NCBI GenBank assembly: GCA_949289935.1
Contig: CASEQD010000005.1
Location: 2,655-66,654, forward strand
Direction of reading: 5' to 3'
DNA: 64,000 bases
Source of the DNA: an uncultured Pseudomonadota bacterium
Lineage (GTDB): Bacteria > Pseudomonadota > Alphaproteobacteria > RF32 > CAG-239
Below are positions 2,260 through 59,340 of this stretch, piece by piece (the first letter of the stretch is position 1; each line of letters starts with the position of its first letter). Below the pieces are notes generated by a model. That model did no database searches, had not been told where the DNA came from, and saw only the letters and a program-made list of their open reading frames with translations. The position numbers and the translations under genes are program-made.

Positions 2260-3177
2260 TTATTTTCTAAAATCCAGCAAAAATTTTGCAAAAGCCTCGG
2301 CTGAACGGCACAAATCAAGGCTAGTCTTTTGAAAAGCTTTATTTTTTTTATGCACATTTTCATCCATATACAGGGCTCTGTTCATCTCCAGCTGCATGGT
2401 GTAAATCTTTTTTCGCGGCTGGCAATAGTTAAAAGTAATAAAAGCGCCGGAATAGGGGCAGTTCATTGAAATTTTATATCCGCCGGATTCCAGCGAATTT
2501 TTCATAAAATCGCTCATCTCTGCCGGACAGCTTTGGTCAAACAGCGTACCGAGACAAAAATCAATCGGCTTGTCTTCCTGCATGACGGAACAGATTCTTG
2601 ACGGCATGGAATGGCAGTCCAAAACAAAACAAAATCCGAATTTTTTCAAAATCCGGTCAATAAGCTGCTGCAAACGCTTGTGATAGACGTCATAGACGCA
2701 GCTGATGCGCTCCTGAACTTCGTTATAATCAAGCAAACCGTCATAAATATTCTGCCGCTGGGCGTTAATCCTGTGCACCACGCCCAACCCCACCCGGCAG
2801 CGGATGCCGTTTTGGATGTCGTTTCCGGCAGGATAGTTATAATACATTTGCGGGTCGATTTCGATTTTGTCGCGGTTGACGTCGATAAACGCCCGTGAAA
2901 TATTCATGCCGATAAGCGGAATTCCTTTATCGGAAGCCGGCCGGACAAGCTCGTCGACAAAACTGTCTTCATTGCTGCGCAGCTCGTTCAAAGGCATGGA
3001 AACCGCGTTCAAAAATTCTTCGGGAAAAACTTGCCCGCTGTGGGGAGAAGACAAAACCAGCGGATAAAGAATATCTTTGGTATTATATTCTTCAAAAATT
3101 TTTATTTTAGTATAATCGACTTTGAAATCGAAATTTTTTTCTGCCAATTTTTTGCCTTTCCTTGCAGATATCATCAA
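2260..3177 (-). CDS. N-formylglutamate amidohydrolase family protein
   Basis: 305 aa. The motifs SSPHSG, DVNRD and LDCHSMP match the FGase (HutG-like) zinc hydrolase family pattern. Confidence 0.75.
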   Translation of the reverse strand: MMISARKGKKLAEKNFDFKVDYTKIKIFEEYNTKDILYPLVLSSPHSGQVFPEEFLNAVSMPLNELRSNEDSFVDELVRPASDKGIPLIGMNISRAFIDVNRDKIEIDPQMYYNYPAGNDIQNGIRCRVGLGVVHRINAQRQNIYDGLLDYNEVQERISCVYDVYHKRLQQLIDRILKKFGFCFVLDCHSMPSRICSVMQEDKPIDFCLGTLFDQSCPAEMSDFMKNSLESGGYKISMNCPYSGAFITFNYCQPRKKIYTMQLEMNRALYMDENVHKKNKAFQKTSLDLCRSAEAFAKFLLDFRK

Positions 3178-28425: not shown

Positions 28426-29304
28426 TTAAAACTCAATCACCGGGCGAACGATGAATAAGTCCATCTTAAGGTAAGAGAGGCTGTATAATTCACCCGAAGA
28501 CGGGTCCCAACTCCACGCAACCTGAGCATTATGGTTCTCGGACGATGACCACCACACATTCTTACTGTATTTATTACTATAGATATTTTCTTTGTTACTT
28601 TTTGTTAAGCTTTGATCAATAGCCCTTTTGTTCTGGTAAATACTGTTTAACACGCCGCCGGAAGGTAAACACCATTTGCCTTTGGTTTCCGGTATGGTTG
28701 ACGGGGCGTAGTTGTATACTGCCCAGAATGCAGGGTAATATTCAGAGGCACTGTTTCCGTATTGCTTGGAACTGTAATCAATAACAATCTTCGTATTCTC
28801 ACAACTGGAAAAATCATTTATCGGAACACTGGGGTAATCCGGCAAATCAGGAATATTAACATCTTTCATTGACCAATAAAAAAATCCCAGACTTTCCAGC
28901 GCCAGAGCCTGGCCGCAGCCGTCCCAGCCGATGTAAACCACAACGCCGATTGGTGTTTTGCCGGAAACAACATCGGCGGAACAGGTACCGTCAGAATAAA
29001 GGATATCTGCGATTTTGCAGTTTTTGGCATAACCTGTGCACTGTCCGAGAACAGCGCCTTCCGGTTCTTCGGGTTGACAGGCGCCGTCTTTCCATTCATA
29101 ACCGTCTTCACAGTCTTTCGGACACCAGTAATATTCTCCGAACGGACATTTTAACCCCGGCGTTTTGCAGGAAGTCTTATTATAACCCAAACTCACACAA
29201 TCTTCATTGTCCACGCACTGAGCAAAAGCGGAAATCGGGAACATAAAAGAAGAAGCCAGCAGGGTAAAATATACCTTTTTGCCGGCGGAAAGAATCACAC
29301 GCAT
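28426..29304 (-). CDS. secreted Cys-rich protein with DUF1566-like (Lcl C-terminal-like) domain
   Basis: I chose start MRVILSAGKKVYFTLLASSFMFPISAFA (signal peptide); the ORF is open from 29373. Has a Cys-rich N-terminal part. The C-terminal WCLPSGGVL....VWWSSSE....VRPVIEF resembles the DUF1566 pattern. Confidence 0.6.
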   Translation of the reverse strand: MRVILSAGKKVYFTLLASSFMFPISAFAQCVDNEDCVSLGYNKTSCKTPGLKCPFGEYYWCPKDCEDGYEWKDGACQPEEPEGAVLGQCTGYAKNCKIADILYSDGTCSADVVSGKTPIGVVVYIGWDGCGQALALESLGFFYWSMKDVNIPDLPDYPSVPINDFSSCENTKIVIDYSSKQYGNSASEYYPAFWAVYNYAPSTIPETKGKWCLPSGGVLNSIYQNKRAIDQSLTKSNKENIYSNKYSKNVWWSSSENHNAQVAWSWDPSSGELYSLSYLKMDLFIVRPVIEF

Positions 29305-29373
29305 TTCATCCTCCACACTTCTAATTTCATGCGGAAGTGAAAAAAATGAAGATGATTTTTTTGTCAGACTCAT

Positions 29374-29630
29374 CCCCCTACCTCAGGGAGGAAAACAGAG
29401 CTGCCTCAGAGAGGAAATTTCTCTCTTCTCTCCCCCTGAGTAACCCCCGTTTTTCCCTCCCTGAGTAGGGAGGGTCAGGGAGGGTATGAGTCAAAACCAA
29501 TCATCTGAATCTTTTTCGCCGACAGAGTCTGAATTGTTAGATTGTGAACAGGCGGCAGCCTAAGGAAACAATCGTTACAATTCAGTTGACCGAAGCAGCT
29601 TCGCTGCAAGAGGTTAGGCCGCCTTTGTTT
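29374..29630. repeat. structured GC-rich intergenic element, copy A (homologous to 59056..59340)
   Basis: Hairpin CCCTCCCT-GAGT-AGGGAGGG (29455-29474), a second AGGGAGGG (29477-29484) and TATGAGTC. CTCAGRGAGGAAA repeats start at 29382 and 29405. Further nested inverted repeats include 29529-29537/29577-29585. Confidence 0.7.
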
Positions 29631-35941: not shown

Positions 35942-36016
35942 GCCGCTATAGCTCAGTGGTAGAGCACGTCATTGGTAATGACGGGGTCGTAAGTCCGATT
36001 CTTACTAGCGGCACCA
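35942..36016 (+). tRNA. tRNA-Thr (anticodon GGU), non-canonical T-loop
   Basis: GCCGCTA/TAGCGGC acceptor, D-arm GCTC-AGTGGTA-GAGC, anticodon arm CGTCA-TTGGTAA-TGACG, T-arm GTAAG-TCCGATT-CTTAC and an encoded CCA. The T-loop has C where the near-universal U55 is expected. Confidence 0.75.
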
Positions 36017-36126
36017 TTTTTGATAATGCACCGTTAAAGGTGCTTTTTTTGTATCTATTCCAAGCCTTTCAGCCAGTCCGATTTTGAGAATTTTTAAAAG
36101 AACAAATTTTAGCAACTTATCGGACT
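35995..36126 (+). repeat. cassette-boundary module, copy 0 (includes the tRNA-Thr 3' end)
   Basis: AGTCCGAT...GGCACCA (tRNA T-arm to CCA), a terminator hairpin, then AGTCCGAT (36075-36082), 36 nt, and ATCGGACT (36119-36126). Confidence 0.8.
36028..36050 (+). terminator. rho-independent terminator after tRNA-Thr (part of module 0)
   Basis: GCACC-gttaaa-GGTGC followed by TTTTTTT. Confidence 0.7.
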
Positions 36127-36167
36127 TTTTTATAAAAAATTAATATCTCTGCATTTTAACAAAACTA

Positions 36168-36196
36168 TTTTCTTTTAACGAGAAGCATGATAAAAT
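36168..36196 (+). promoter_or_regulatory. candidate extended -10 promoter of cassette 1
   Basis: TG-A-TAAAAT (36188-36196), about 28 nt upstream of the ATG. The -35 is weak (TTTTCT). Confidence 0.3.
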
Positions 36197-36223
36197 AAGA
36201 TGAGATTATTGAAAGGGACATAA

Positions 36224-37021
36224 ATGGCAGATACTCTTGATATTAGCAATATGTTTGCATATGACATGTTTGAGGGAGATACAAAAGTTGGAACTTGTAA
36301 TATTTCAATCCATCCTCAATATAGTGGTTTTCAGTGTCCAGATACTTGGAAAGATAAATCTGTGTTAGAAATTGATGGCTTTGGAACCTTCCAAAGAAAT
36401 GGTTACGGACGCGCCGGATTACAAAAATGCTATGAGTTATCACAACAAATGGGATGTGAAGGACGTATAGTCGTTCATGCTACATGGGATGCGGGCTCTT
36501 TTTATGAACATTGTGGCTTTAACAGTAATAATCAAGGAAAACCAGGAATAAAATATTTTGAACCGACCTTTGAAAATTTGGAAAAATTATTTAAAGGTGG
36601 AAAAAAAGATAATTTCTTATTTAGAGAAAGTACACCTGATTTTAATGCTTTTGCGAACTTTAATTTTGATGATTTTGAGCTGCAAAAATCAAATCAAAAG
36701 AGATGCGATGATAATAAAAAGCCCGAACTAGACTTTAATCCTGAAGCAGGTTTAATTGAATATGCTGATAAGAACTTACAAAAAATTGCAGAGCTAAGAA
36801 AGAGAATAAAAAACAATAATATTGATCCGTTAGAACTTAAAGCCAAATCACTAGCTTCGAGCCTTGAAGAAATTGGCTTATCTAGAGATGATTTAGGCAA
36901 AACAGGGAATAGCAGGACAGGCGAAATAACTGAAAAGAATAGGAAAATTGCAAAAAGCCAAACGGAAGATGCTAAAGAGGCAATGTTACGAAATAAAAAA
37001 TTAAAGGAAGATTGTCGGTAA
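36224..37021 (+). CDS. GNAT-like N-acetyltransferase domain protein with charged C-terminal extension (cassette 1)
   Basis: FQRNGYGRAGLQKCYELS matches the R/Q-x-x-G-x-G/A acetyl-CoA loop, and FYEHCGF is present. The C-terminal ~130 aa are K/E/N-rich low complexity. The region is very AT-rich. Confidence 0.55.
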   Translation: MADTLDISNMFAYDMFEGDTKVGTCNISIHPQYSGFQCPDTWKDKSVLEIDGFGTFQRNGYGRAGLQKCYELSQQMGCEGRIVVHATWDAGSFYEHCGFNSNNQGKPGIKYFEPTFENLEKLFKGGKKDNFLFRESTPDFNAFANFNFDDFELQKSNQKRCDDNKKPELDFNPEAGLIEYADKNLQKIAELRKRIKNNNIDPLELKAKSLASSLEEIGLSRDDLGKTGNSRTGEITEKNRKIAKSQTEDAKEAMLRNKKLKEDCR

Positions 37022-37188
37022 TTTTTACCTAAAAAAATTACAACTTTTTATTTTTGAGAAAATTTAATGATTTTATACTAGAAGATGACATTTCTAAAGA
37101 ATAGCTTTTGACTTGATTTTTATACAAATTCTTTACTGTCAAACATATCAATTTTCTTACTCAAAAGCTTAAAATTATCATAAAATTT

Positions 37189-37326
37189 AGTCCGATAATT
37201 GCATAGTATCTCGCACCATTTTTAAGAATTCCGCCCAAGTGGCGGATTTTTTATTTTTAAACAAGAGATTATTTAGTCCGATTTTGTGAGTTTTGAAAAT
37301 GCCATTTTGGGCAAAGTTATCGGACT
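37189..37326 (+). repeat. cassette-boundary module, copy 1
   Basis: AGTCCGATAATTGCATAGTATCTCGCACCA (37189-37218). Hairpin CCGCC-caagt-GGCGG plus a T-run. AGTCCGAT (37275-37282), 36 nt, ATCGGACT (37319-37326). Confidence 0.8.
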
Positions 37327-37332
37327 TTTATC

Positions 37333-37361
37333 TTTACTTTACTTATTGCATCCTATATAAT
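37333..37361 (+). promoter_or_regulatory. candidate promoter of cassette 2
   Basis: TTTACT (37333-37338), 17-nt spacer, TATAAT (37356-37361), about 33 nt before the ATG at 37394. Confidence 0.4.
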
Positions 37362-37393
37362 CCTCACACAAATTGAAATAAGGATATGCATAA

Positions 37394-38158
37394 ATGGACT
37401 TATCAGTCAAAATAATGAGTAAAATTGACACATTATCAAGTATTTTGAATTTTCAAACGGATGATACATCTGTTTACTGGCGAGGAGCTTTATTCAAAGC
37501 TTATCCTTTTTTGGACGAAAAAAAATGTTTAAATATGGCTTGGAATGAAAGAAAAGAATATTTAACGGCAGAATTATCAAAAATCTATGATAAAATTGAA
37601 ATAGACTTACAAAAAAAATGTTTTATTTTCCAAAAAAGTTGGAAAGAAAACAAAGAAAAAATAAATCATATTTACACAAAAGTTTTTGGTATTGATTGCG
37701 ACAATCTTTTTAATACTATGATTGCAGAAGTTTCTCTTAATCCCATATGTCCCAGAAATCTCAGGCATCAAAGTTATTCTGTTACTTGGGCAGGAGATGA
37801 ACTTGACTTTCTAAAAACATCTCTTCATGAAATGGTTCATTTTGTTTGGTTTTATATATGGAAACAACATTTTAAAGATGATTGGTCTGAATATGAAGCA
37901 CCAAATTTAAAATGGATTTTAAGCGAAATGGTCATAGATACCTTTGTGAAAAATACAGATATCGGAAATATGTATCCTGAAAAGTATAAAAACAAACCAG
38001 CTTATAAATATTTTTATGATATGAAAATAAATAATCAAATTATTCTTGAAGAATTAACCTCTCTCTATATAAAGTCTAAAAATATAATACAATTTATGGT
38101 GGAAGCTTACTTATATTGTCAAATAAATGAAAAAGACATTAGACGGCAAATATTATAG
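37394..38158 (+). CDS. hypothetical HExxH protein (possible zincin-like) (cassette 2)
   Basis: 254 aa. SLHEMVHFVW has the HExxH motif, with a downstream Glu in LSEMVID 29 residues after the second His. No signal peptide. AT-rich. Confidence 0.5.
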   Translation: MDLSVKIMSKIDTLSSILNFQTDDTSVYWRGALFKAYPFLDEKKCLNMAWNERKEYLTAELSKIYDKIEIDLQKKCFIFQKSWKENKEKINHIYTKVFGIDCDNLFNTMIAEVSLNPICPRNLRHQSYSVTWAGDELDFLKTSLHEMVHFVWFYIWKQHFKDDWSEYEAPNLKWILSEMVIDTFVKNTDIGNMYPEKYKNKPAYKYFYDMKINNQIILEELTSLYIKSKNIIQFMVEAYLYCQINEKDIRRQIL

Positions 38159-38190
38159 TTAATTTTCCTATTTTAAGCCTCATACTCACT

Positions 38191-38330
38191 AGTCCGATAA
38201 CTGCACAGTATCGCGCACCATTTTTAAGAATGCACCCTTTGAGGTGCTTTTTTGTATGTGTTCCAAAGCCTTGCAAAGAGTCCGATTTTGGAAATTTTTA
38301 ATTTAGCATTTTTTACAAAGTTATCGGACT
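38191..38330 (+). repeat. cassette-boundary module, copy 2
   Basis: AGTCCGATAACTGCACAGTATCGCGCACCA (38191-38220). Hairpin GCACC-ctttga-GGTGC plus a T-run. AGTCCGAT (38279-38286), 36 nt, ATCGGACT (38323-38330). An extra AGTCCGATAA box lies at 38379-38388. Confidence 0.8.
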
Positions 38331-38557
38331 TTTTGATGAAAAGCCAATAAATTTAAGCATTTTATCTTCTAAAATTCTAGTCCGATAAAAATGATTGAAA
38401 ATTTAATTTATTCAGCATAACATTTTGACTATGGATATTTTAATTATAATCATAGCAGTAACTTTTTATGCCACTTGTAAAACGTGGCGAAATCTGTTTA
38501 ACCAAGAACAAAATCCGATTTATACTTGCAAAACTCTGCCGGGTGAGGAGATAAAAC

Positions 38558-39373
38558 ATGAACAAAAATTTAACATTTGCTGGTGCGGCGATTGTTATTC
38601 TTGGATTGTCGATGAGCATAGACTCTTTGTGTGCAAATACGCTTTCTGAAAAGAATGAGAATTTATCTATCGGCGAGGAAGTATTTTTTAATCCCTATAC
38701 TGGTTTACCATGTCATGAAACGGATGCTTGGAATCAAAGCAATCATACCAGCGAATGCTACCGCTGGCATGTTATCAAAGACAACGGCGACAGTTGTGAT
38801 TTGTTGCTCGATCACAACCTCGGTGCCAGAGTGCCGTGGTTAAGTTACGAAGATTTTATTTCGGCCGGCGGTACTCCTGACAAATACGGCGCCTCGGGCA
38901 ATAATCGCTACGGGCCGTTGACCGCGTTAAAAGAGCTGCAAAAGACTACCGGGTCGTTTAAAAATGTTGAAATCTTGACTGCTGATGACAATGTATCGCG
39001 TTCCGTCGGCGGCGCAGGCTATACCGTTGATTACACCGGTTATAAAGCACGGTTGATAAGCGCGGCAGAGCTGGCTGCTCTGTCTGCTAGCAAACCAATG
39101 AAAGATGGCAATGCTTGGCAAGCCTCAAGCGGCAGTTATATTCACGCTTTGCCTCAATGGCTTTATACAAATCTCGGCCGTCCGGATATAGCGCAGCCCG
39201 AGATTCATGTCGCCTACTATACCGATACTGCGCACGCCGTCAAATCGGATACTGTCTGGGTAGTTTGTCTGGGCAGCAATCTTGGCAAAGCTTCCGTAAC
39301 CACAATGAGCCGTTATGGACAGGAACTTTTGGGTATTCGTCCGGTCATCAAAGTAAAGAAAAACAAGCTATGA
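38558..39373 (+). CDS. secreted protein, DUF1566-like C-terminus (cassette 3)
   Basis: Signal peptide MNKNLTFAGAAIVILGLSMSIDSLCA, with a GAGGAG RBS 7 nt upstream. The ARLISAAELAAL and C-terminal GIRPVIKV motifs parallel WCLPSGGVL and VRPVIEF in 28426..29304. Confidence 0.55.
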   Translation: MNKNLTFAGAAIVILGLSMSIDSLCANTLSEKNENLSIGEEVFFNPYTGLPCHETDAWNQSNHTSECYRWHVIKDNGDSCDLLLDHNLGARVPWLSYEDFISAGGTPDKYGASGNNRYGPLTALKELQKTTGSFKNVEILTADDNVSRSVGGAGYTVDYTGYKARLISAAELAALSASKPMKDGNAWQASSGSYIHALPQWLYTNLGRPDIAQPEIHVAYYTDTAHAVKSDTVWVVCLGSNLGKASVTTMSRYGQELLGIRPVIKVKKNKL

Positions 39374-39445
39374 TAAGCGAAGATTGTTTGCAACATATGA
39401 TATTGAATAATATTTGTATTTACTCCTGTTGTACTAACAAAATAA

Positions 39446-39730
39446 CCATCCAAAGTCCTGGCCTTTGCTTTCAGTCTGGCGGCGGAAATAGAAAGAAACT
39501 TAATCTCCCAAAGGACTAAATCATCTCTTGCTAATCTTAAAGCGTCTGGCAAGAAACTCGGACGCCCGTTTTCCGCAGAGTCAAAAAAGCTCAAACTCTC
39601 AAAAAATGCTAAAAAGGTACGGAATTTATTATCTAAAGGCATCTCCAAGTCCCAAATTGCTAAAATCCTCGGCGTCCAGCGCAGCACATTGAGGCGGTTT
39701 ATTGAAAGAATATCTGAAACAAAGGCTTAA
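39446..39730 (+). pseudogene. serine recombinase (resolvase/invertase) remnant; C-terminal half only
   Basis: Hand translation gives PSKVLAFAFSLAAEIERNLISQRTKSSLANLKASGKKLGRPFS...SKSQIAKILGVQRSTLRRFIERI. This matches the resolvase E-helix (AE.ER.LI..RT) plus the GRP linker and HTH. An in-frame stop at 39443 leaves no catalytic Ser domain. Confidence 0.7.
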
Positions 39731-39754
39731 CATCTCTTCAAACTTACTAAGAAA

Positions 39755-41008
39755 TTATATATCCAAGCAATTAGGATTTAGCAAAAATTCTTTTAACCCT
39801 AAAATTAAAATACCGTCATCATCTTGATAGGTCGCCACATCATCCTTTACAATAATTATTTTTTTAAATGAATCACCTATTTTTAATAAAGAGCGTTTTT
39901 CTTGAGTTTCTTTTGCTTTTGTTGGCATTTGTAAGGCTGATTGAATATAATATTTTTTATAACCGCAGTTTACTACAAAATCAACTTCTGTTTTTTTGTT
40001 AATGTATGTATTATTGGCTTGTTTTTCTTTAATAAGAACCTCTCCAACGTCAACATCACAGCCACGAATTTTCAATTCATTATAGATTATATTTTCCATG
40101 ATATGGCTTTCTTCTGTTTGCCTAAATCGTAAACGCGAATTTCGTAATCCTAAATCAGTAAAATAGTATTTAGATGGAGTGTTTATATATTTTTTACCTT
40201 TAATGTCATAACGCAACGCATTACTAATTAAAAAAGAATCTTGCAAATAATCAATATAGTTTTTAATTGTAGGCGCTGAAATATCTAGTTTTTTTACGCT
40301 CTTAAAAGTATTGGTTAATATTAACGGATTTACTAAGCAACCAATATCTGAAGCTAAAATATTTATTAATTCTTCTAGTTCTTCATCATTGCGGATATTA
40401 TGCCGGTCTTTGATATCTTGAATATATGTTTCAGTAAATAAAGACTGTAAATACTTCCGTTTTTCTTCATCTGTTTGACGAGATAAAATCATAGGCATAC
40501 CACCATAAGTATAATATTCTTTCCATGCATCAATCCAAGATCCTTCATAAACAGAAAAGAATTCTGCAAAACTGAGAGGATAAACCCTGATTTCATCTCC
40601 TCTACCTCTAAATTCCGTTACAATGTCGGTAGATAAAAATTTAGAATTGCTTCCGGTTACATATACATCTAAATTTTCAATGTGTAAAAAGCCATTTAAA
40701 ACATCTGAAAAATTATCCATTAGCTGAACTTCATCTAATAACAAATAATGCATTTCAGAATCAATGATATGTGATTTGACATAGTTATAACATTCATCTG
40801 GTTGACGATATTTCATATTTGGATAGTCATCTAAAGCCAAAGTAATGATTCTTTTTTCAGAAACCCCTTCATCCAGCAAATGTTGCTTGAAAAGTTGAAA
40901 CAATAAATAGGATTTACCACAGCGTCTTATTCCACTAACTATTTTAACTAATCCGTTGTGTTTTTTGTTGATTAGTTGAGTAAGGTAATTTGTTCTTTCA
41001 ATTTTCAC
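39755..41008 (-). CDS. AAA+ ATPase, DUF4143-type ATP-binding protein
   Basis: 417 aa. N-terminal R.NYL..LI......VKIVSGIRRCGKSYLL (Walker A) and a LLLDEVQ Walker B-like motif. The layout is typical of the AAA_14/DUF4143 family. Confidence 0.75.
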   Translation of the reverse strand: MKIERTNYLTQLINKKHNGLVKIVSGIRRCGKSYLLFQLFKQHLLDEGVSEKRIITLALDDYPNMKYRQPDECYNYVKSHIIDSEMHYLLLDEVQLMDNFSDVLNGFLHIENLDVYVTGSNSKFLSTDIVTEFRGRGDEIRVYPLSFAEFFSVYEGSWIDAWKEYYTYGGMPMILSRQTDEEKRKYLQSLFTETYIQDIKDRHNIRNDEELEELINILASDIGCLVNPLILTNTFKSVKKLDISAPTIKNYIDYLQDSFLISNALRYDIKGKKYINTPSKYYFTDLGLRNSRLRFRQTEESHIMENIIYNELKIRGCDVDVGEVLIKEKQANNTYINKKTEVDFVVNCGYKKYYIQSALQMPTKAKETQEKRSLLKIGDSFKKIIIVKDDVATYQDDDGILILGLKEFLLNPNCLDI

Positions 41009-41235
41009 AACACCCTCCTATTTTAAATAATTGTACACATGTCAAGTTTTATAAAATATACTGTTAAAAGTTTTTGTTGTCAATGTTTATTTTAAAAATT
41101 CATACAACTGTTCAGTTTTATAAAATAAGATGCAGCTGTCTGAAAATATTATGCCAGTAGTAAATTTGATTTGGTAATGCCACAATCAAACAACTCAATT
41201 TTCCTACCCAAGTCTTTAAATTCCTCATATTCGTT

Positions 41236-41397
41236 AGTCCGATAATCGCATAGTATCGCGCACCATTTGTTAATTTCTGGCGTTTTTAGCAGCTTATCGA
41301 ACGGTCTAGCTATTGAAAAAGCTATATTTTTTCCATCAGTTTTGCAGTCCGATAATATTAGTTTTAAAATGTCTCTTTTTTGTGAAATAATCGAACT
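41236..41397 (+). repeat. cassette-boundary module, copy 3 (degenerate, terminal)
   Basis: AGTCCGATAATCGCATAGTATCGCGCACCA (41236-41265). Hairpin TAGCT-attgaaaa-AGCTA plus T-rich sequence. AGTCCGAT (41346-41353), 36 nt, ATCGAACT (41390-41397, one G>A change). Confidence 0.7.
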
Positions 41398-41528
41398 TTT
41401 TAAGAATTTTTCAACATTTGCAGATGCCTTCTTAATTTGGAGGTTTTTAAAACGGATGATATTGCAAAAAAAACAATGAGGCGTAAAAAAGGGATTGTAA
41501 AATTGTCTTACAATCCCTTTTCTTTTTA

Positions 41529-42395
41529 CTATTCAAGTGGATCAAAGTCACTGCTAATTAATGAACCGGACTTTGAACGCCTCTCATAATCCGTGGATAT
41601 ATTAATACCGCGAAGATACAAGAGCAAAAGCAACAAGCCAAAAATTCCTGTATAAATCCAGGCGGCGTTGTCAACTTTTTTATTTATGATTTCAGCAAAT
41701 ACTTCTGGCTCTGAAGCATTGCGAAAACCGGAATCCGAATCAATAAAATAATATCTATCGCCGAAACCATAAATGTAATAACTCTTTCCGGCTTTAACAG
41801 CGATTCCCGAACCACTGATTTTTCCTTGAGGATAATTCTGTCCGGAAATGGTAACGAGTTGTGCGGTAGCTTTATCTACTGTCTTATAACCATCGTATTC
41901 AACCGAAGGGGCAAAAAGACTCACAACCGACGTACCAAACAAAGCAAGAGCCATACATCGTACCGTACATACAATAGTCCACCACCAAATCTCTTCATCG
42001 TCATCTTTTCCAAATAACCAGACTAAGATAAGAGATAGAACGAAGCCTGCTACAGGAGACAAAACAATAACTTTCCAGTAAATTCCGCCCGCTCCTTGAT
42101 AGGAAAAAGATAACTTTCTGATTAAAGAGAGAGCCTGAAAACAATCACTTTTTGAAAGAAAAACTTCGTCACTGTTAGAATAAACGCCGACAGAATCTCC
42201 AACGTGTAACTCTTCGCCGGAAAGCCAATCTTCAACGCCGCCATCAATCAGATAGCTGTTTCCATTAATGACAACGCTTTTCGAATTTTCAATTCTTTCA
42301 ATTCTTCCGCTGTTTTCCAAATGAAAATTGCCTTTTATTCCATGGCAGGAACTCAAAGTGAGGACGGCAAACAATAAAAATAGTAAATTTTTCAT
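41529..42395 (-). CDS. hypothetical lipoprotein / multi-pass membrane protein
   Basis: 288 aa. Lipobox LTLSSC, three internal TM segments and repeated soluble segments. Confidence 0.5.
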   Translation of the reverse strand: MKNLLFLLFAVLTLSSCHGIKGNFHLENSGRIERIENSKSVVINGNSYLIDGGVEDWLSGEELHVGDSVGVYSNSDEVFLSKSDCFQALSLIRKLSFSYQGAGGIYWKVIVLSPVAGFVLSLILVWLFGKDDDEEIWWWTIVCTVRCMALALFGTSVVSLFAPSVEYDGYKTVDKATAQLVTISGQNYPQGKISGSGIAVKAGKSYYIYGFGDRYYFIDSDSGFRNASEPEVFAEIINKKVDNAAWIYTGIFGLLLLLLYLRGINISTDYERRSKSGSLISSDFDPLE

Positions 42396-42603
42396 AATAA
42401 ATAAAGTTTAGATTAATAATACAATTTGCTGAACATAATACAAAAAAACGCAATTTTGTCAAGAAAAAATGAAAAAAAGTTCCAAAACACAAATATTTTA
42501 TTGGTTGATGCTTGAACATCATCCATAAAAAAACAATTTCTTCAGCAAAATTTTAGACAATAAAAAATCCCCGCAACAATTATGTTGTCGGGGAAACGTT
42601 TTT

Positions 42604-42891
42604 TTACGAAATAAGCATTTTTGCCACAATTGATAAAACCAGAATGCTTAAAATAACTGTCAGCCAGGTGAATTTTTCTCTCTTTTGCGGCTTTGTTTTG
42701 GGCAATATAAACAGCATAAAAAATGCCATGCCGAAACAATAAATAAAAAAGAGCAGCGATAAATCTTCTGCCATTGCAATCATCGGTGTTTGCAGTTTTT
42801 TGATATCCAATAAATGCAAAACGATCAGAAACAACAACAAACCGGTACAGACCGGAAACTTTCTGAATAAATCAATGATAAATTTCTTCAT
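42604..42891 (-). CDS. small hypothetical membrane protein
   Basis: 95 aa with three hydrophobic segments. Confidence 0.4.
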   Translation of the reverse strand: MKKFIIDLFRKFPVCTGLLLFLIVLHLLDIKKLQTPMIAMAEDLSLLFFIYCFGMAFFMLFILPKTKPQKREKFTWLTVILSILVLSIVAKMLIS

Positions 42892-43110
42892 AAAAACAAG
42901 TTGTTAAATGTAAGAATAATAACGGATAAAAACACAATAATTAACTTATAAATTACATATATACATAATATCAAAAATGTAAACAATTATTTTCAGAGAT
43001 GCTTCTCTTGGATTTACGGGAACACAGCGAAGGTTGATTGGCTGAGTGGATAAAAAGCAACCGCTTCCCGTAACGCCGTATTTTGTAGTTTTGAAAATGA
43101 CGTTATAAAA

Positions 43111-44091
43111 TTAAAAATCTTTTACCGCCTGTTTGTTTGCAAATTTTTGTGCAACCAGATTGGATTTACATTGTTTTTGCATCTTATCAGCAAATTTCAA
43201 TAAACTTTCCATCCGGGCAATATCTTCCGCTTCCATAAAATTAGTATACAAACCGCCGTCTTTATAAATGTGGATGACTTTTTGTTGAAAAGCATAAACT
43301 TTATCTATTTCTTCAGATGTTGCAGCTTTCCTTAAATTATACTCCACAGCCCCTTTTAACAGTTCATCAGATTTTTGTGTGTCTTCTTCGGATCCAAGAA
43401 TTCTAAAGCTTTGCAGATAATCCGAAAATTTAACTTTGGATGTTTTTAATGTTTTATCAAAATCTTCGGCAAACTTTTTGCTTTTCCCGAAATATACATC
43501 TTGTATAAAAGCATTGTTTTCTACTTTTTCTCCCATGAGCAAATCTGCTACAATAACTTGTGAAGCATATCCTGCATTTGCTCCCGGGCCGACACGGCCG
43601 TTGGCTCTGCTTGCCAAAGCATCTGTTATGGCTTCATTTAAATCGGCGCTTGTTGTCGTAACAATATTTCCTCGTCCGTCAAATTCTGTATATCTTGATC
43701 CGATTTTTATATAGCCTCCGCCATTTTCGGTTTTGCCGCTGTTGGAAGAGAAAGCGTGCAAAACTTCGTGTGTTATAATATGGTTGCTTGCTTGAGAACA
43801 TATTGCAATACCTTGAGTCGTTTTGTATGATCTGCTGTCAGAGCTTGCAAAAAACTTATATGCAGCAGCGCCTGCCGGAACTTTAACATCACAAAGTTTA
43901 CCATTTTCAAGTCTTTTGCAACTTCGATTATTATCACATAAAACAACCGTCAGATCTTTGTATATTTCATCAACTTTATCTTTCCAGTCGTCAGGAGAAA
44001 TTTTTCGTGCAAAATCTTTCGCAGATTTTAATATTCCGGCGATTTTAGGATCCTCTTGCGTTTCAGAATAATCTGATTTTCTGAAAATCAT
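43111..44091 (-). CDS. hypothetical zincin-like metalloprotease (HExxH + NEAxTD)
   Basis: 326 aa. IITHEVLHAF (HExxH) is followed 41 residues later by LNEAITD, which resembles the gluzincin NEAxSD third-ligand motif. No signal peptide. Confidence 0.5.
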   Translation of the reverse strand: MIFRKSDYSETQEDPKIAGILKSAKDFARKISPDDWKDKVDEIYKDLTVVLCDNNRSCKRLENGKLCDVKVPAGAAAYKFFASSDSRSYKTTQGIAICSQASNHIITHEVLHAFSSNSGKTENGGGYIKIGSRYTEFDGRGNIVTTTSADLNEAITDALASRANGRVGPGANAGYASQVIVADLLMGEKVENNAFIQDVYFGKSKKFAEDFDKTLKTSKVKFSDYLQSFRILGSEEDTQKSDELLKGAVEYNLRKAATSEEIDKVYAFQQKVIHIYKDGGLYTNFMEAEDIARMESLLKFADKMQKQCKSNLVAQKFANKQAVKDF

Positions 44092-58709: not shown

Positions 58710-58721
58710 AAATTAAAGTAA

Positions 58722-58767
58722 CAAAAAATGAATTGTTCTCTGAAAGGAGAACAATTCATTTTTTTTT
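58722..58767. terminator. bidirectional terminator after ettA
   Basis: AATGAATTGTTCTC-tgaaag-GAGAACAATTCATT, a 14-bp stem flanked by AAAAA and TTTTTTT. Confidence 0.75.
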
Positions 58768-58785
58768 GAATAAGGTATATAAAGG

Positions 58786-59055
58786 CTAAGGACAAGAGAG
58801 AGAATAACTTCTTTCAGTATGTCCGTCACAATCTCCTCCGTTTACCGAAGGTATTGCTGCTTCGCAATCTGACAGGCTTGAATAGGGAGTGCCTATATAA
58901 CGGTTTGTTTCACTGCAATCAGCTCCGTTATCGCAAGTACAATTTTCATCAAAAAAAACATAATAGAAAGAACCGGAACCTCTGGTATCACAATGGCAAT
59001 TTATTACAGAGGATGTCCGCCATTGATAAACGGTAATAAAACATACCGATGCCAC
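58786..59055 (-). CDS. small Cys-rich hypothetical protein (89 aa, GTG start)
   Basis: An ORF with 9 Cys. It lies between the bidirectional terminator and structured element B. No clear signal peptide or RBS, so coding status is uncertain. Confidence 0.3.
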   Translation of the reverse strand: MASVCFITVYQWRTSSVINCHCDTRGSGSFYYVFFDENCTCDNGADCSETNRYIGTPYSSLSDCEAAIPSVNGGDCDGHTERSYSLSCP

Positions 59056-59340
59056 CCGGATTTTGTCTTTGAGAACTTCTCCGCTTTCGCTTTCGGAGGC
59101 CTCTCCCTTTTTCTCCTCCCCTGAGTAGGGGAGGCGGGAGGGGTATGAATCTAAAACGAATTATCTAATTTCCTCGCCAAAAGCAACGTCAGTTGCTTTT
59201 GACTTCGGCCGTCTCCCCTATCTCAGGGGAGGAGAAGAAAGAGTTTTCTATCTCAGAGAAGGAGAAAAAGGAGAGGCCTATCTCAGGGAGGAAATTAGAT
59301 AAGAGAGTAACCTCAGGAGAGGAAATAAACCAATTTTTCC
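59056..59340. repeat. structured GC-rich intergenic element, copy B (homologous to 29374..29630)
   Basis: Hairpin CCTCCCCT-GAGT-AGGGGAGG (59114-59133), GGAGGGG and TATGAATC. A second hairpin CTCCCCT-atctc-AGGGGAG lies at 59212-59230. Four CTCAGRGRAGGA repeats start at 59221, 59251, 59281 and 59311. Confidence 0.7.
59177..59200. terminator. hairpin with flanking A/T runs inside element B (possible bidirectional terminator)
   Basis: AAAA-AGCAAC-gtca-GTTGCT-TTTG. Confidence 0.45.

What the first reader, a model, noticed from the sequence alone, without database searches (positions are those of the whole stretch)
29374..29630. Two homologous structured elements with a covarying 8-bp hairpin, both 5' of Cys-rich protein genes
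**What the sequence shows**
- Copy A runs 29374-29630 and copy B 59056-59340.
- They share a core of about 75 nt.
  - A: TTTTCCCTCCCTGAGTAGGGAGGGTCAGGGAGGGTATGAGTCAAAACCAATCATCTGAATCT.
  - B: TTCTCCTCCCCTGAGTAGGGGAGGCGGGAGGGGTATGAATCTAAAACGAATTATCTAATTT.
- The hairpin is CCCTCCCT-GAGT-AGGGAGGG in A and CCTCCCCT-GAGT-AGGGGAGG in B.
- Pairs 5 and 6 counted from the loop are T-A/C-G in A and C-G/T-A in B, so two base pairs change while pairing is kept.
- In both copies a second near-copy of the 3' arm follows 2 nt later, allowing alternative pairing.
- Both copies also carry CTCAGRGAGGA words in direct and inverted orientation, plus extra nested stems.
  - A has 29378-29390 pairing with 29430-29442, AGAGAG/CTCTCT inside that, and 29529-29537 pairing with 29577-29585.
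- Both lie immediately upstream, in the sense of the minus strand, of ORFs encoding Cys-rich proteins: 28426-29304 and 58786-59055.
- On the minus strand (the mRNA sense) the element is rich in CCUCC-type anti-Shine-Dalgarno words.

**Interpretation**
Possibilities include a cis-regulatory leader, a small RNA, or a structured mobile or REP-like element. I do not recognise it as a known riboswitch or RNA family.
Basis: partly seen in the sequence, partly recalled or inferred. Interest (0 to 1): 0.75.

Follow-up and report, generated by a model that had tools for sequence, protein, structure and literature searches.

The report
Dispersed triplex-forming DNA repeat units
The two "structured elements" are copies of a short repeat scattered through gut-bacterial genomes; its three segments co-vary as a single-stranded DNA triple helix would require, making it a relative in kind of E. 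coli BoxC/TMECO repeats rather than a regulator of the neighbouring genes.

Summary
A (29447-29520) and B (59105-59178) share a ~74-nt core (score 61 against 17±2 for shuffles), and its 8-bp hairpin differs by two compensated pairs. The RNA-leader reading does not hold.

Pattern scans found the same unit in 27 further stretches: 12 contigs of one Pseudomonadota MAG, a gut "Azospirillum" MAG, a Xylanibacter isolate, gut metagenome contigs and one viral contig. Units lie between ORFs, on either strand, upstream or downstream of unrelated genes, singly or as inverted pairs.

The unit is Y-arm(8) – GAGT – R-arm(8) – 2-3 nt – third segment(8) – NTGA. The third segment is the mirror image of the R-arm, neither a copy nor a complement. 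In all 50 distinct units the internal A sits at the same mirrored place in both (positions 4, 5, 6, 7, or 2+7). The base opposite it is A (40) or T (10), never G or C. These are the G•GC, A•AT and T•AT triads of a class II purine-motif intrastrand DNA triplex.

That kind is known: BoxC/PIT/TMECO (Holder 2015, PMC4666352). This family fails the TMECO sequence pattern, so it is a new member of a known kind. The natural three-strand covariation is the most useful new point. No folding experiment was possible.

The parts
29455..29462 (+). Unit A, pyrimidine (Y) arm CCCTCCCT
   Evidence: Read directly. It pairs 8/8 with 29467-29474.
29463..29466 (+). Unit A, first loop GAGT
   Evidence: GAGT is the first loop in 34 of 50 distinct family units.
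29467..29474 (+). Unit A, purine (R) arm AGGGAGGG
   Evidence: The internal A is at position 5 (subfamily 'type 1').
29475..29477 (+). Unit A, second loop TCA
   Evidence: Across the family the second loop is 2-3 nt, most often TTA (24 of 50).
29478..29485 (+). Unit A, third (reverse-Hoogsteen) segment GGGAGGGT, the mirror image of the R arm
   Evidence: 8 of 8 legal purine-motif triads in antiparallel register.
29486..29520 (+). Conserved tail ATGA GTCAAAACCAATCATCTGAAT..., shared with copy B and with other loci
   Evidence: TGA follows the third segment in 50 of 50 distinct units. The tail aligns with B and with L001, L010 and L012.
29373..29449 (.). Three decayed partial units: TCCCCCT-ACCTC-AGGGAGGA (29373-92); CCTC-AGAGAGGA (29404-15); CTCCCCCT-GAGT with no R arm (29430-41)
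Evidence: Read directly. The predicted fold is no better than shuffles (z = -1.3).
29529..29585 (.). Imperfect palindrome TCTGAATTGT...ACAATTCAG, built from a second repeated module
   Evidence: The stem is predicted. The TCTGAATTGT module recurs next to units in L001, L007, L011, L012, L015 and L027.
59115..59122 (+). Unit B, Y arm CCTCCCCT
59123..59126 (+). Unit B, first loop GAGT
59127..59134 (+). Unit B, R arm AGGGGAGG (internal A at position 6)
59135..59136 (+). Unit B, second loop CG
59137..59144 (+). Unit B, third segment GGAGGGGT, the mirror image of the R arm and not a copy of it
   Evidence: 8 of 8 legal triads.
59145..59178 (+). Conserved tail ATGA ATCTAAAACGAATTATCTAAT...
   Evidence: Aligns with A. 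It is identical in a third copy in the same organism, at L001 10622-10690.
59212..59232 (.). Hairpin-only partial unit TCTCCCCT-ATCTC-AGGGGAGG. It is inverted relative to unit B and lacks a third segment.
   Evidence: 59221-35 is complementary to 59109-23 (read directly).
59217..59325 (+). Tandem ~30-nt duplications of loop + R arm + purine tail (ATCTCAGGGGAGGAGAA...)
   Evidence: Tandem Repeats Finder reports 59217-59292, period 30, 2.6 copies. A fourth degenerate copy reaches about 59325 (read).
28426..29304 (-). Neighbouring gene: secreted Cys-rich DUF1566/Lcl_C-like protein. It is a neighbour, not part of the element.
   Evidence: Translation shows a signal peptide. Weak Lcl_C Pfam hit, E = 0.007. 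Paralogues occur in 10 of 26 motif-fetched loci.
58786..59055 (-). Uncertain 89-aa Cys-rich ORF next to unit B
   Evidence: No Pfam hit and no homologue in the held DNA. It was called in the Logan contig but not in the ENA contig.

Best explanation
**What it is.** Both loci are clusters of one intact unit plus decayed fragments of a dispersed, non-coding DNA repeat.

**The intact unit (about 31 nt plus a conserved tail), read on the G-rich strand:**
- an 8-nt pyrimidine arm;
- a 4-5-nt loop, usually GAGT;
- the complementary 8-nt purine arm;
- a 2-3-nt loop, usually TTA;
- a third G-rich segment that is the mirror image of the purine arm;
- an invariant N-TGA.

**How it most likely works.**
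- When this strand is single-stranded, the first two segments form a hairpin.
- The third segment then folds back antiparallel to the purine arm in the major groove, forming G•G-C, A•A-T and T•A-T reverse-Hoogsteen triads.
- The result is a class II purine-motif intrastrand DNA triplex.
- The strand could be single-stranded as lagging-strand template, in a transcription bubble, or as a recombination or transposition intermediate.

**Shown here:**
- the repeat is multi-copy and scattered, with no significant gene association or strand bias;
- triplex compatibility is preserved through coordinated changes in all three segments.

**Inferred:**
- That the triplex actually folds. This rests on analogy with E. 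coli TMECO/BoxC, which forms a stable triplex in vitro.
- That the structure is what selection keeps.
- That the local consequences are polymerase pausing and sequence instability. Both window loci show partial units and tandem duplications, and short-read assemblies break there.
- How copies spread is unknown. The options are gene conversion between copies or an unidentified structure-specific enzyme.
For: **1. Multi-copy and scattered.**
- A pattern that did not fix the variable positions found 14 stretches among GTDB species genomes and 12 among metagenome contigs.
- A third copy lies about 10.7 kb beyond B in the same organism (L001).
- Two independent short-read assemblies of this organism break inside both loci, at window positions of about 29516, 29579, 59074, 59170 and 59255.

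**2. Three-strand covariation.**
- Of 131 hairpin-strand instances, 59 have at least 7 of 8 legal triads. These give 50 distinct units.
- The internal A of the R arm is at position 4, 5, 6, 7 or 2+7. In all 50 units the third segment has a non-G base at the mirrored position; three units carry one extra non-G.
- 47 of 50 units have 8/8 legal triads. When third segments are shuffled among units, the mean is 14.6 and the maximum 28 in 5000 permutations.
- The base opposite the internal A-T pair is A in 40 units and T in 10, never G or C. The base opposite the first A is T in all 50.
- Only 3 of 65 hairpin strands with a G-rich 3' flank fail the rule.

**3. Subfamily swap at an orthologous site.**
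- Downstream of a conserved DUF559 gene, L010 has CCCTCCC-TAA-CCCTCCCT-ACTC-AGGGAGGG.
- L018, L019 and L024 have CCCCCTC-TAA-CTCCCCCT-ACTC-AGGGGGAG at the same site.
- Loops, the TCATA tail and nearby flanks are conserved; L024's second loop reads TAG.

**4. The kind is described.** Holder et al. 2015 (PMC4666352) report for BoxC/PIT/TMECO:
- a class II motif, with second loop TTA or CCG;
- always intergenic, with no strand bias;
- singles or inverted pairs of unlike types;
- a stable triplex by CD and NMR;
- no promoter or terminator activity;
- association with local genome instability.

**5. Matching pair architecture.** All 5 convergent pairs here combine unlike subfamilies, as in E. coli.
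Against: - No triplex was measured. No tool here models triple helices.
- For E. coli TMECO, in vivo DMS footprinting did not detect a stable triplex (PMC4666352).
- The covariation rests on four or five subfamily classes, each amplified, so the number of independent events is small. A rough chance estimate is (1/7)^4, my calculation from the classes.
- The invariant N-TGA tail and the conserved flanking modules are not explained by a triplex.
- Type 1 units, including unit A, are mirror-symmetric. They fit a triplex, a canonical G-quadruplex and alternative Watson-Crick pairing equally well.
Confidence: 0.8

Rival explanations
1. A REP/REPIN- or MITE-type mobile element. The hairpin and the conserved tail are the recognition and cleavage structure for a dedicated transposase, such as a RAYT/IS200-like HUH enzyme acting on single-stranded DNA. 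The triplex rule would be part of that recognition or incidental to it. This overlaps with the best explanation rather than excluding it.
For: - The repeat is multi-copy and intergenic, with subfamilies of near-identical copies.
- Inverted doublets resemble REPINs. Divergent same-type doublets share a conserved ~52-nt AT-rich spacer and look like a ~125-nt element with terminal inverted repeats.
- The TGA tail is invariant in 50 of 50 units.
- The family crosses phyla and includes one viral contig.
- A GTAG tetranucleotide lies at the junction of the first loop and the 3' arm.
Against: - No homologue of E. coli RAYT was found by tblastn or phmmer in the window plus about 270 kb of fetched loci.
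- No target-site duplication is visible at the doublets inspected (by eye).
- Holder et al. found no link between TMECO and mobile elements.
- A hairpin-only recognition model does not predict mirror covariation of a third segment.
Confidence: 0.3
2. A cis-regulatory RNA leader or small RNA tied to secreted Cys-rich (DUF1566-like) genes. CCUCC words in the minus-strand transcript would sequester the Shine-Dalgarno sequence.
For: - Unit A lies about 150 nt upstream of the start of a DUF1566-like gene, whose ribosome-binding site is GGAGG.
- Paralogues of that gene occur in 10 of 26 motif-fetched loci, and four are directly adjacent to units.
Against: - Units are found upstream of genes, downstream of genes, between convergent genes and between divergent genes, on either strand.
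- The enrichment next to the gene family is not significant (4/52 against 4/164, p = 0.10).
- No promoter-like or terminator-like sites are found in A.
- Rfam gives only far-sub-threshold matches to eukaryotic miRNA precursors.
- Purine-motif triplexes are reported not to form in RNA (PMC4666352).
- The ORF next to B is unverified.
Confidence: 0.04
3. A G-quadruplex motif. The two G-rich segments would form an intramolecular quadruplex in competition with the hairpin.
For: Type 1 units, including A, read GGGAGGG-TTA/TCA-GGGAGGG. That is a canonical 4 × G3 motif with 1-3-1 loops.
Against: - Only 14 of 50 distinct units, all type 1, keep four G3 tracts. Unit B and the AGGGGGAG and AGGAGGGG subfamilies do not.
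- A quadruplex requires neither a complementary C-rich arm nor mirror placement of the A.
- NMR of E. coli TMECO showed a triplex, not a quadruplex.
Confidence: 0.05
4. A pyrimidine-motif triplex (C+•G-C, T/U•A-T) formed by the complementary C-rich strand as DNA or RNA. For A, that strand is the mRNA sense.
For: For units with A in the third segment (40 of 50, including A and B), the complementary strand has the order and register needed for a pyrimidine-motif triplex (the general point is made in PMC4666352). Such triplexes can form in RNA.
Against: - The 10 units with T in the third segment would place A opposite an A-T pair on the complementary strand. That is not a pyrimidine-motif triad.
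- Runs of six or seven C+ need acidic pH.
Confidence: 0.05
5. An array of binding sites for a sequence-specific double-stranded-DNA-binding protein that recognises CTCAGGGAGG words.
For: The words recur in direct and inverted orientation at both loci, spaced about 30 nt apart in B.
Against: - The words are the loop + R-arm halves of decayed units.
- The variable A moves between subfamilies, so there is no fixed word.
- Mirror symmetry is not a symmetry that duplex-DNA-binding dimers read (inference).
Confidence: 0.05

Closest known systems
BoxC / PIT element / TMECO of E. coli and other Proteobacteria (Hoyne and Maher 2000, as cited in Holder et al. 2015; NAR 43:10126, PMC4666352)
   Same: - Class II order of segments: Y arm, loop, R arm, short loop (often TTA), then a reverse-Hoogsteen G-rich arm using G•GC, A•AT and T•AT triads.
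- G/C-rich, about 31-36 nt, and multi-copy.
- Strictly between genes, with no strand bias and no link to gene function.
- Found singly or as inverted pairs that combine unlike types.

Sources; the E. coli pair at MG1655 164547-164631 was read directly; this family.
   Different: - Arms are 8 nt rather than 9 nt, and the units do not match the TMECO pattern CCCTCNCCC-N3-6-GGGNGAGGG-N3-GGGNGAGGG.
- The hosts differ: gut Alphaproteobacteria-like MAGs, Xylanibacter (Bacteroidota) and one viral contig.
- There is an invariant N-TGA tail and further conserved flanking modules.
- The TMECO R arm is mirror-symmetric, so it cannot show positional covariation. Here four asymmetric subfamilies do.
- Sequence homology to BoxC is not shown.
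REP / BIME / REPIN elements mobilised by RAYT transposases
   Same: - Short GC-rich imperfect palindromes, present in many intergenic copies.
- Found singly, in inverted doublets and in mosaic clusters with other modules.
- Hairpin pairing is kept through compensatory changes.
   Different: - A third, co-varying, non-Watson-Crick segment is present.
- No RAYT was found in the held DNA.
- GTAG sits at the loop/stem junction rather than 5' of the hairpin foot.
H-DNA (mirror-repeat homopurine/homopyrimidine tracts)
   Same: - A mirror repeat of a purine tract.
- The same reverse-Hoogsteen triads.
   Different: H-DNA takes its pyrimidine strand from the duplex partner and needs supercoiling. Here the pyrimidine arm is supplied in cis on the same strand, so one strand alone can fold (for the definitions).

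Membership tests
Class II purine-motif intrastrand triplex motif (definitions of Hoyne 2000 and ITxF in Holder 2015) | Three consecutive blocks on one strand, in the order 5' pyrimidine arm, purine arm, reverse-Hoogsteen arm 3' | tested here: met
   Units A (29455-29485) and B (59115-59144) and all 50 distinct family units have this order.
Class II purine-motif intrastrand triplex motif (definitions of Hoyne 2000 and ITxF in Holder 2015) | Stem of 6-15 triplets with at most one mismatch, and loops of 1-6 nt | tested here: met
   There are 8 triplets. 47 of 50 units are perfect and 3 have one mismatch. Loops are 4-5 nt and 2-3 nt.
Class II purine-motif intrastrand triplex motif (definitions of Hoyne 2000 and ITxF in Holder 2015) | Third strand antiparallel to the purine arm, using only G•GC, A•AT and T•AT triads | tested here: met
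   The mirror register holds in 50 of 50 units. The base opposite the internal A-T pair is A in 40 and T in 10. The permutation control is and the negative control.
Class II purine-motif intrastrand triplex motif (definitions of Hoyne 2000 and ITxF in Holder 2015) | The isolated strand actually folds into a triplex (CD, NMR, melting) | not testable with these tools
   It was shown for E. coli TMECO only.
TMECO / BoxC / PIT sequence family | Matches 5'-CCCTCNCCC N3-6 GGGNGAGGG N3 GGGNGAGGG | tested here: not met
   Arms are 8 nt (CCCTCCCT, CCTCCCCT, CTCCCCCT, CCCCTCCT). None contains CCCTCNCCC.
TMECO / BoxC / PIT sequence family | Always intergenic, with no strand or gene-class bias | tested here: met
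   with the caveat that ORFs were called naively. Compare.
TMECO / BoxC / PIT sequence family | Close inverted pairs combine two different unit types | tested here: met
   All 5 convergent pairs (L002, L008, L009, L013, L022) combine unlike types. Divergent pairs with the 52-nt spacer are same-type, which has no E. coli counterpart reported.
REP / REPIN with RAYT | A cognate RAYT (Y1 HUH transposase) gene in the genome, typically flanked by the repeats | tested here: inconclusive
   No hit to E. coli RayT in the window plus about 270 kb of loci. Whole genomes were not available.
REP / REPIN with RAYT | A conserved GTAG tetranucleotide 5' of the hairpin foot | tested here: not met
   GTAG occurs inside the unit, spanning the first loop and the R arm (GA-GTAG-GG), not 5' of the stem. 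The criterion comes from my own knowledge of REP/RAYT.
MITE | Terminal inverted repeats together with target-site duplications | tested here: inconclusive
   Divergent doublets have inverted ends. No duplication was seen by eye at L004, L011 or L015, and no empty site was available for comparison.
Known structured RNA family (Rfam) or gene-specific leader | A match at gathering score, or a fixed position and orientation relative to one gene family | tested here: not met
   Searches gave only sub-threshold miRNA-precursor matches.
Canonical G-quadruplex motif | Four G3+ tracts separated by loops of 1-7 nt, conserved across the family | tested here: not met
   14 of 50 units only, all of one subfamily.

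The most novel reading that the evidence does not exclude
The three-way covariation would be the first comparative-genomic evidence that folding of an intrastrand DNA triple helix is under selection in living bacteria. The evidence has three parts: four asymmetric subfamilies, A/T interchange in the third strand, and a full subfamily swap at an orthologous site. On this reading the triplex, together with the invariant N-TGA tail, is the recognition structure of a still-unknown copying or conversion machinery. That machinery would move the unit between Alphaproteobacteria, Bacteroidota and phage.
Probability: 0.3. Interest if true: 0.75.

Novelty: new member of a known kind. Interest (0 to 1): 0.5.

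Why it matters
Whether intrastrand DNA triplexes ever matter in vivo is unresolved. E. coli BoxC/TMECO folds in vitro, but no in vivo triplex or function has been shown (PMC4666352). TMECO arms are mirror-symmetric, so their sequences cannot separate selection for a triplex from simple repetition.

This family has asymmetric arms in several subfamilies. The sequences alone therefore show that the third strand tracks the hairpin in the reverse-Hoogsteen register. That gives a natural mutational series for biophysics and a clear prediction for genome-wide tests.

In practice it also explains why assemblies of these gut bacteria break at such loci. It warns against annotating the units as riboregulators, G-quadruplexes or Shine-Dalgarno/anti-Shine-Dalgarno elements.

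Tried and rejected
- **Rfam.** Searches at gathering and at permissive thresholds, on the window and on three loci, found only two tRNAs and sub-threshold eukaryotic miRNA-precursor hairpins. A known RNA family is rejected.
- **Promoter and terminator scans of A and B.** Nothing above the shuffle expectation.
It holds only for the mirror-symmetric subfamily. None of the 35 asymmetric units has a direct copy.
- **G-quadruplex as the conserved feature.** Present in 14 of 50 units only.
- **RAYT or another mobiliser.**
  - E. coli rayT was fetched and searched with tblastn and phmmer against all held DNA, with no hit.
  - A DUF559 gene flanked by inverted units looked like a candidate, but it occurs at only one orthologous locus.
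- **Association with Cys-rich/DUF1566-like genes.** Paralogues are frequent in the fetched loci, but adjacency is not significant.
- **The 89-aa ORF next to B.** No homologue was found by relaxed blastp or tblastn in the held DNA.
- **Exact-protein look-ups.** Three of these, run to get other assemblies of locus A, failed, probably because of start-codon choice. The succinyl-CoA ligase gene worked.
- **GC skew of the window.** It follows gene orientation and gives no replication direction.
- **Literature search for the exact unit sequences.** Nothing found.
Full report
**1. Checking the observation**

The quoted sequences are present at the stated coordinates.
- The best local alignment between the two regions is A 29447-29520 against B 59105-59178, about 74 nt. 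It scores 61, against 17.2 ± 2.2 (maximum 26) for 300 shuffles.
- The hairpins are CCCTCCCT-GAGT-AGGGAGGG (29455-29474) and CCTCCCCT-GAGT-AGGGGAGG (59115-59134). Two pairs are exchanged and pairing is kept.
- Folded as single-stranded DNA they give z = -5.3 and -2.9.
- The CTCAGRGAGGA words occur four times in the 64-kb window, only at these loci, against 0.51 expected.
- The stem 29529-37 / 29577-85 is predicted (z = -2.7). The nested stems at 29378-29442 are predicted but are no better than shuffles (z = -1.3).
- The gene left of A (28426-29304, minus strand) encodes a signal-peptide, Cys-rich protein with a weak Lcl_C/DUF1566 hit.
- The 89-aa ORF left of B has a GTG start, no Pfam hit and no homologue in any held DNA. 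It was called in one public assembly but not in another.

**2. The elements are copies of a dispersed repeat**

Scan results:
- A scan of one genome per GTDB species with CCCTGAGTAGGG-N8-16-GGTATGA returned 14 stretches. Twelve are contigs of one MAG (Pseudomonadota bacterium S36M_St_32), one is from "uncultured Azospirillum sp. UMGS63", and one is from the isolate Xylanibacter ruminicola KHT3.
- A metagenome scan left the four variable positions of each arm and the whole third segment free. It returned 12 more stretches, several labelled human gut.
- A viral scan returned one stretch.

Evidence from the window's own organism:
- A third copy, identical to B's core, lies about 10.7 kb to the right of B (L001 10622).
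- Two independent short-read assemblies break inside both loci, at window positions of about 29516, 29579, 59074, 59170 and 59255.

Genomic context:
- Mapping units against ORFs gives about 35 independent clusters.
- All lie between ORFs. Some of my over-extended ORF calls overlap them.
- They occur upstream of genes, downstream of genes, between convergent genes and between divergent genes, with the G-rich strand in either orientation.
- Homologues of the DUF1566-like protein are frequent in the fetched loci. However, they make up only 4 of 52 flanking ORFs against 4 of 164 others (p = 0.10).

**3.

On the G-rich strand every intact unit reads:
- Y arm (8 nt);
- loop (GAGT in 34 of 50; otherwise AAGGT and similar);
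- R arm (8 nt);
- loop (TTA in 24 of 50; also CTA, TGA, CAG, CG and others);
- third segment (8 nt, ending in T);
- N-TGA.

The R arm is A followed by G's with one internal A. The position of that A defines the subfamilies:

| R arm | Position of internal A |
|---|---|
| AGGAGGGG | 4 |
| AGGGAGGG | 5 |
| AGGGGAGG | 6 |
| AGGGGGAG | 7 |
| AAGGGGAG | 2 and 7 |

The Y arm is always the Watson-Crick complement. The third segment is neither a copy nor a complement of the R arm. It is its mirror image: GGGGTGG, GGGAGGG or GGGTGGG, GGAGGGG or GGTGGGG, GAGGGGG, and GAGGGGTT respectively.

The hairpin finder ignored the third segment. Its results:
- 131 hairpin-strand instances split cleanly. 59 had at least 7 of 8 legal triads. 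The rest scored 1-6; most are the opposite strands of the same hairpins.
- Among the 50 distinct units, the third segment has a non-G base at the mirrored place of the internal A in all 50. Three units carry one extra non-G.
- 47 of 50 have 8/8 legal triads. Permuting third segments among units gives a mean of 14.6 and a maximum of 28 in 5000 trials.
- No unit with an asymmetric arm (0 of 35) carries a direct copy.
- The base opposite the internal A-T pair is A in 40 units and T in 10, never G or C. The base opposite the first A is T in all 50.
- Only 3 of 65 hairpin strands with a G-rich 3' flank fail the rule.

G•G-C, A•A-T and T•A-T with an antiparallel third strand are the triads of the purine-motif triple helix. 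The order Y-R-H on one strand is the "class II intrastrand triplex" (definitions quoted).

**4. A swap at an orthologous site**

Downstream of a conserved DUF559 gene, four related contigs align well across the gene and the unit's immediate flanks.
- L010 carries ...TCATA-CCCTCCC-TAA-CCCTCCCT-ACTC-AGGGAGGG...
- L018, L019 and L024 carry ...TCATA-CCCCCTC-TAA-CTCCCCCT-ACTC-AGGGGGAG...
- All three segments differ in concert. Loops, tail and nearby flanks are conserved, apart from TAG in L024's second loop.

Whether this arose by gene conversion from another copy or by stepwise change, only triplex-compatible states are seen.

**5. What the rest of the two window loci are**

- Left of unit A there are three decayed partial units (29373-29449).
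- Right of unit A there is the conserved tail, then a palindrome built from a second repeated module, TCTGAATTGT. That module accompanies units in other loci.
- Right of unit B there is an inverted hairpin-only partial unit (59212-59232). There is also a tandem ~30-nt duplication of "loop + R arm + purine tail" (59217-59292, 2.6 copies), with a further degenerate copy.

Both loci are therefore mosaic clusters of one intact unit plus debris. This matches the small deletions and rearrangements reported around E. coli triplex motifs.

**6. Comparison with what is known**

The literature search led to Holder et al. 2015, NAR 43:10126 (PMC4666352). That paper reports the following.
- The E. coli repeat was first called BoxC. 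Hoyne and Maher rediscovered it in 2000 as the "potential intrastrand triplex" (PIT) element. It is called TMECO in the 2015 paper.
- Its pattern is CCCTCNCCC-N3-6-GGGNGAGGG-N3-GGGNGAGGG, a class II purine motif.
- The second loop is TTA (type A) or CCG (type B).
- There are 23 copies in MG1655. They are always intergenic, show no strand bias and have no link to gene function.
- Five inverted pairs always combine type A with type B.
- The triplex is stable in vitro by CD and NMR, with melting at 70-82 °C.
- No protection was seen by DMS footprinting in vivo.
- There is no promoter or terminator activity.
- The repeat is associated with local genomic variability.
- Purine-motif triplexes do not form in RNA.

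I read one E. coli pair directly (MG1655 164547-164631).

How this family compares:
- **Same:** the architecture, the common TTA loop, the intergenic scatter, and the unlike-type convergent pairs (5 of 5: L002, L008, L009, L013, L022).
- **Different:** 8-nt arms that fail the TMECO pattern, other hosts, an invariant N-TGA tail, same-type divergent doublets with a conserved 52-nt AT-rich spacer, and asymmetric arms.

I file it as a class II intrastrand triplex repeat, for which all sequence criteria are met. I do not file it as a member of the TMECO sequence family, because the pattern is not met. No paper in the library contains the unit sequences.

**7. Rivals**

- **REP/RAYT or MITE-like mobilisation.** This is compatible with the data and does not exclude a triplex. 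No RAYT homologue occurs in the window plus about 270 kb of loci, and no target-site duplication was seen. Whole genomes were not available.
- **G-quadruplex.** The motif is kept in only 14 of 50 units.
- **Pyrimidine-motif triplex on the complementary strand**, which could exist as RNA in the mRNA sense of locus A. It fits the 40 units with A in the third strand but not the 10 with T, and it needs protonated C runs.
- **Gene-specific RNA leader or small RNA.** The context data and Rfam contradict this.

**8. Mechanism, with shown and inferred steps marked**

*Shown:*
- The repeat is multi-copy.
- There is no significant gene association or strand bias.
- There is three-strand covariation in the reverse-Hoogsteen register.
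- There is a subfamily swap at an orthologous site.
- There is local debris, and assemblies break at these loci.

*Inferred:*
- The G-rich strand folds into a Y•R•R triplex when single-stranded.
- This fold, not just the hairpin, is what is maintained.
- Its local effects are polymerase pausing and instability, as argued for TMECO.

*Unknown:* how copies spread and what the N-TGA tail does.

**9. Verdict**

The thing is a new member of a known kind.

Interest is moderate (0.5). It is not a new class of element. However, its asymmetric subfamilies give sequence-level evidence for selection on an intrastrand DNA triplex, which the symmetric E. coli family cannot give. This makes the old question of in vivo relevance more testable.

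Noticed in passing
window 35942-44000: tRNA-Thr(ggt) at 35942-36016 is followed by a low-GC island (GC 0.33-0.34). It holds three tandem cassettes of about 1.0-1.2 kb. Each is bounded by a repeat of the tRNA 3' end plus a hairpin (36011, 37213, 38215) and by a 55-nt inverted-repeat element AGTCCGAT...ATCGGACTTTT (36075, 37275, 38279, 41346). The ORFs include a GNAT-like protein and an AAA_14/DUF4143 ATPase. This looks like serial integration at the tRNA.
   Followed up: partly
L007:185-560, L011:1-352, L012:2250-2721, L015:1-334, L015:3560-3900, L027:3077-3500: A composite repeat of about 330 nt lies downstream of triplex units. It contains several hairpins with compensatory changes between copies, for example ATGTTCGGAT..ATCCGGACAT against ATTGTCGGA..TCCGACAAT. 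No Rfam family matches it.
   Followed up: partly
L010:4118-4597, L018:2679-3159, L019:2950-3430, L024:1006-1486: A 113-aa DUF559 (Vsr-like endonuclease fold) gene is tightly flanked by two convergent triplex units of unlike subfamilies, 26 nt upstream and 53 nt downstream. Only this one orthologous locus shows it, so it is not a general mobiliser.
   Followed up: yes
L006 (Xylanibacter ruminicola KHT3) 3067-3138; L016, L022, L023, L026; L029 (IMG/VR contig) 2872-2901: The AGGAGGGG/GGGGTGG subfamily occurs in three settings: a Bacteroidota isolate, contigs carrying DUF6371/AAA_25 mobile-element-type genes, and one viral contig. The repeat family therefore crosses phyla.
   Followed up: partly
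All units, for example window 29486-29489 and 59145-59148: After the third strand every unit has N-TGA. TGA is present in 50 of 50 distinct units, including by-catch units that the search patterns did not select. A triplex does not explain this. It may be a recognition or cleavage site.
   Followed up: partly
window 28426-29304, plus L004, L008, L010, L012, L014, L017, L018, L019, L021, L027: A paralogous family of secreted Cys-rich DUF1566-like proteins (31-44% identity; about 25% for the partial match in L027) turns up in 10 of 26 loci that were fetched by the DNA motif alone. It seems to be an expanded family in these gut bacteria.
   Followed up: partly
window 58713-58770: A strong hairpin with A/T runs on both sides (AAAAAAAAATGAATTGTTCTC...GAGAACAATTCATTTTTTGT) lies between the ABC-F gene and the doubtful 89-aa ORF. 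It looks like a bidirectional terminator.
   Followed up: no
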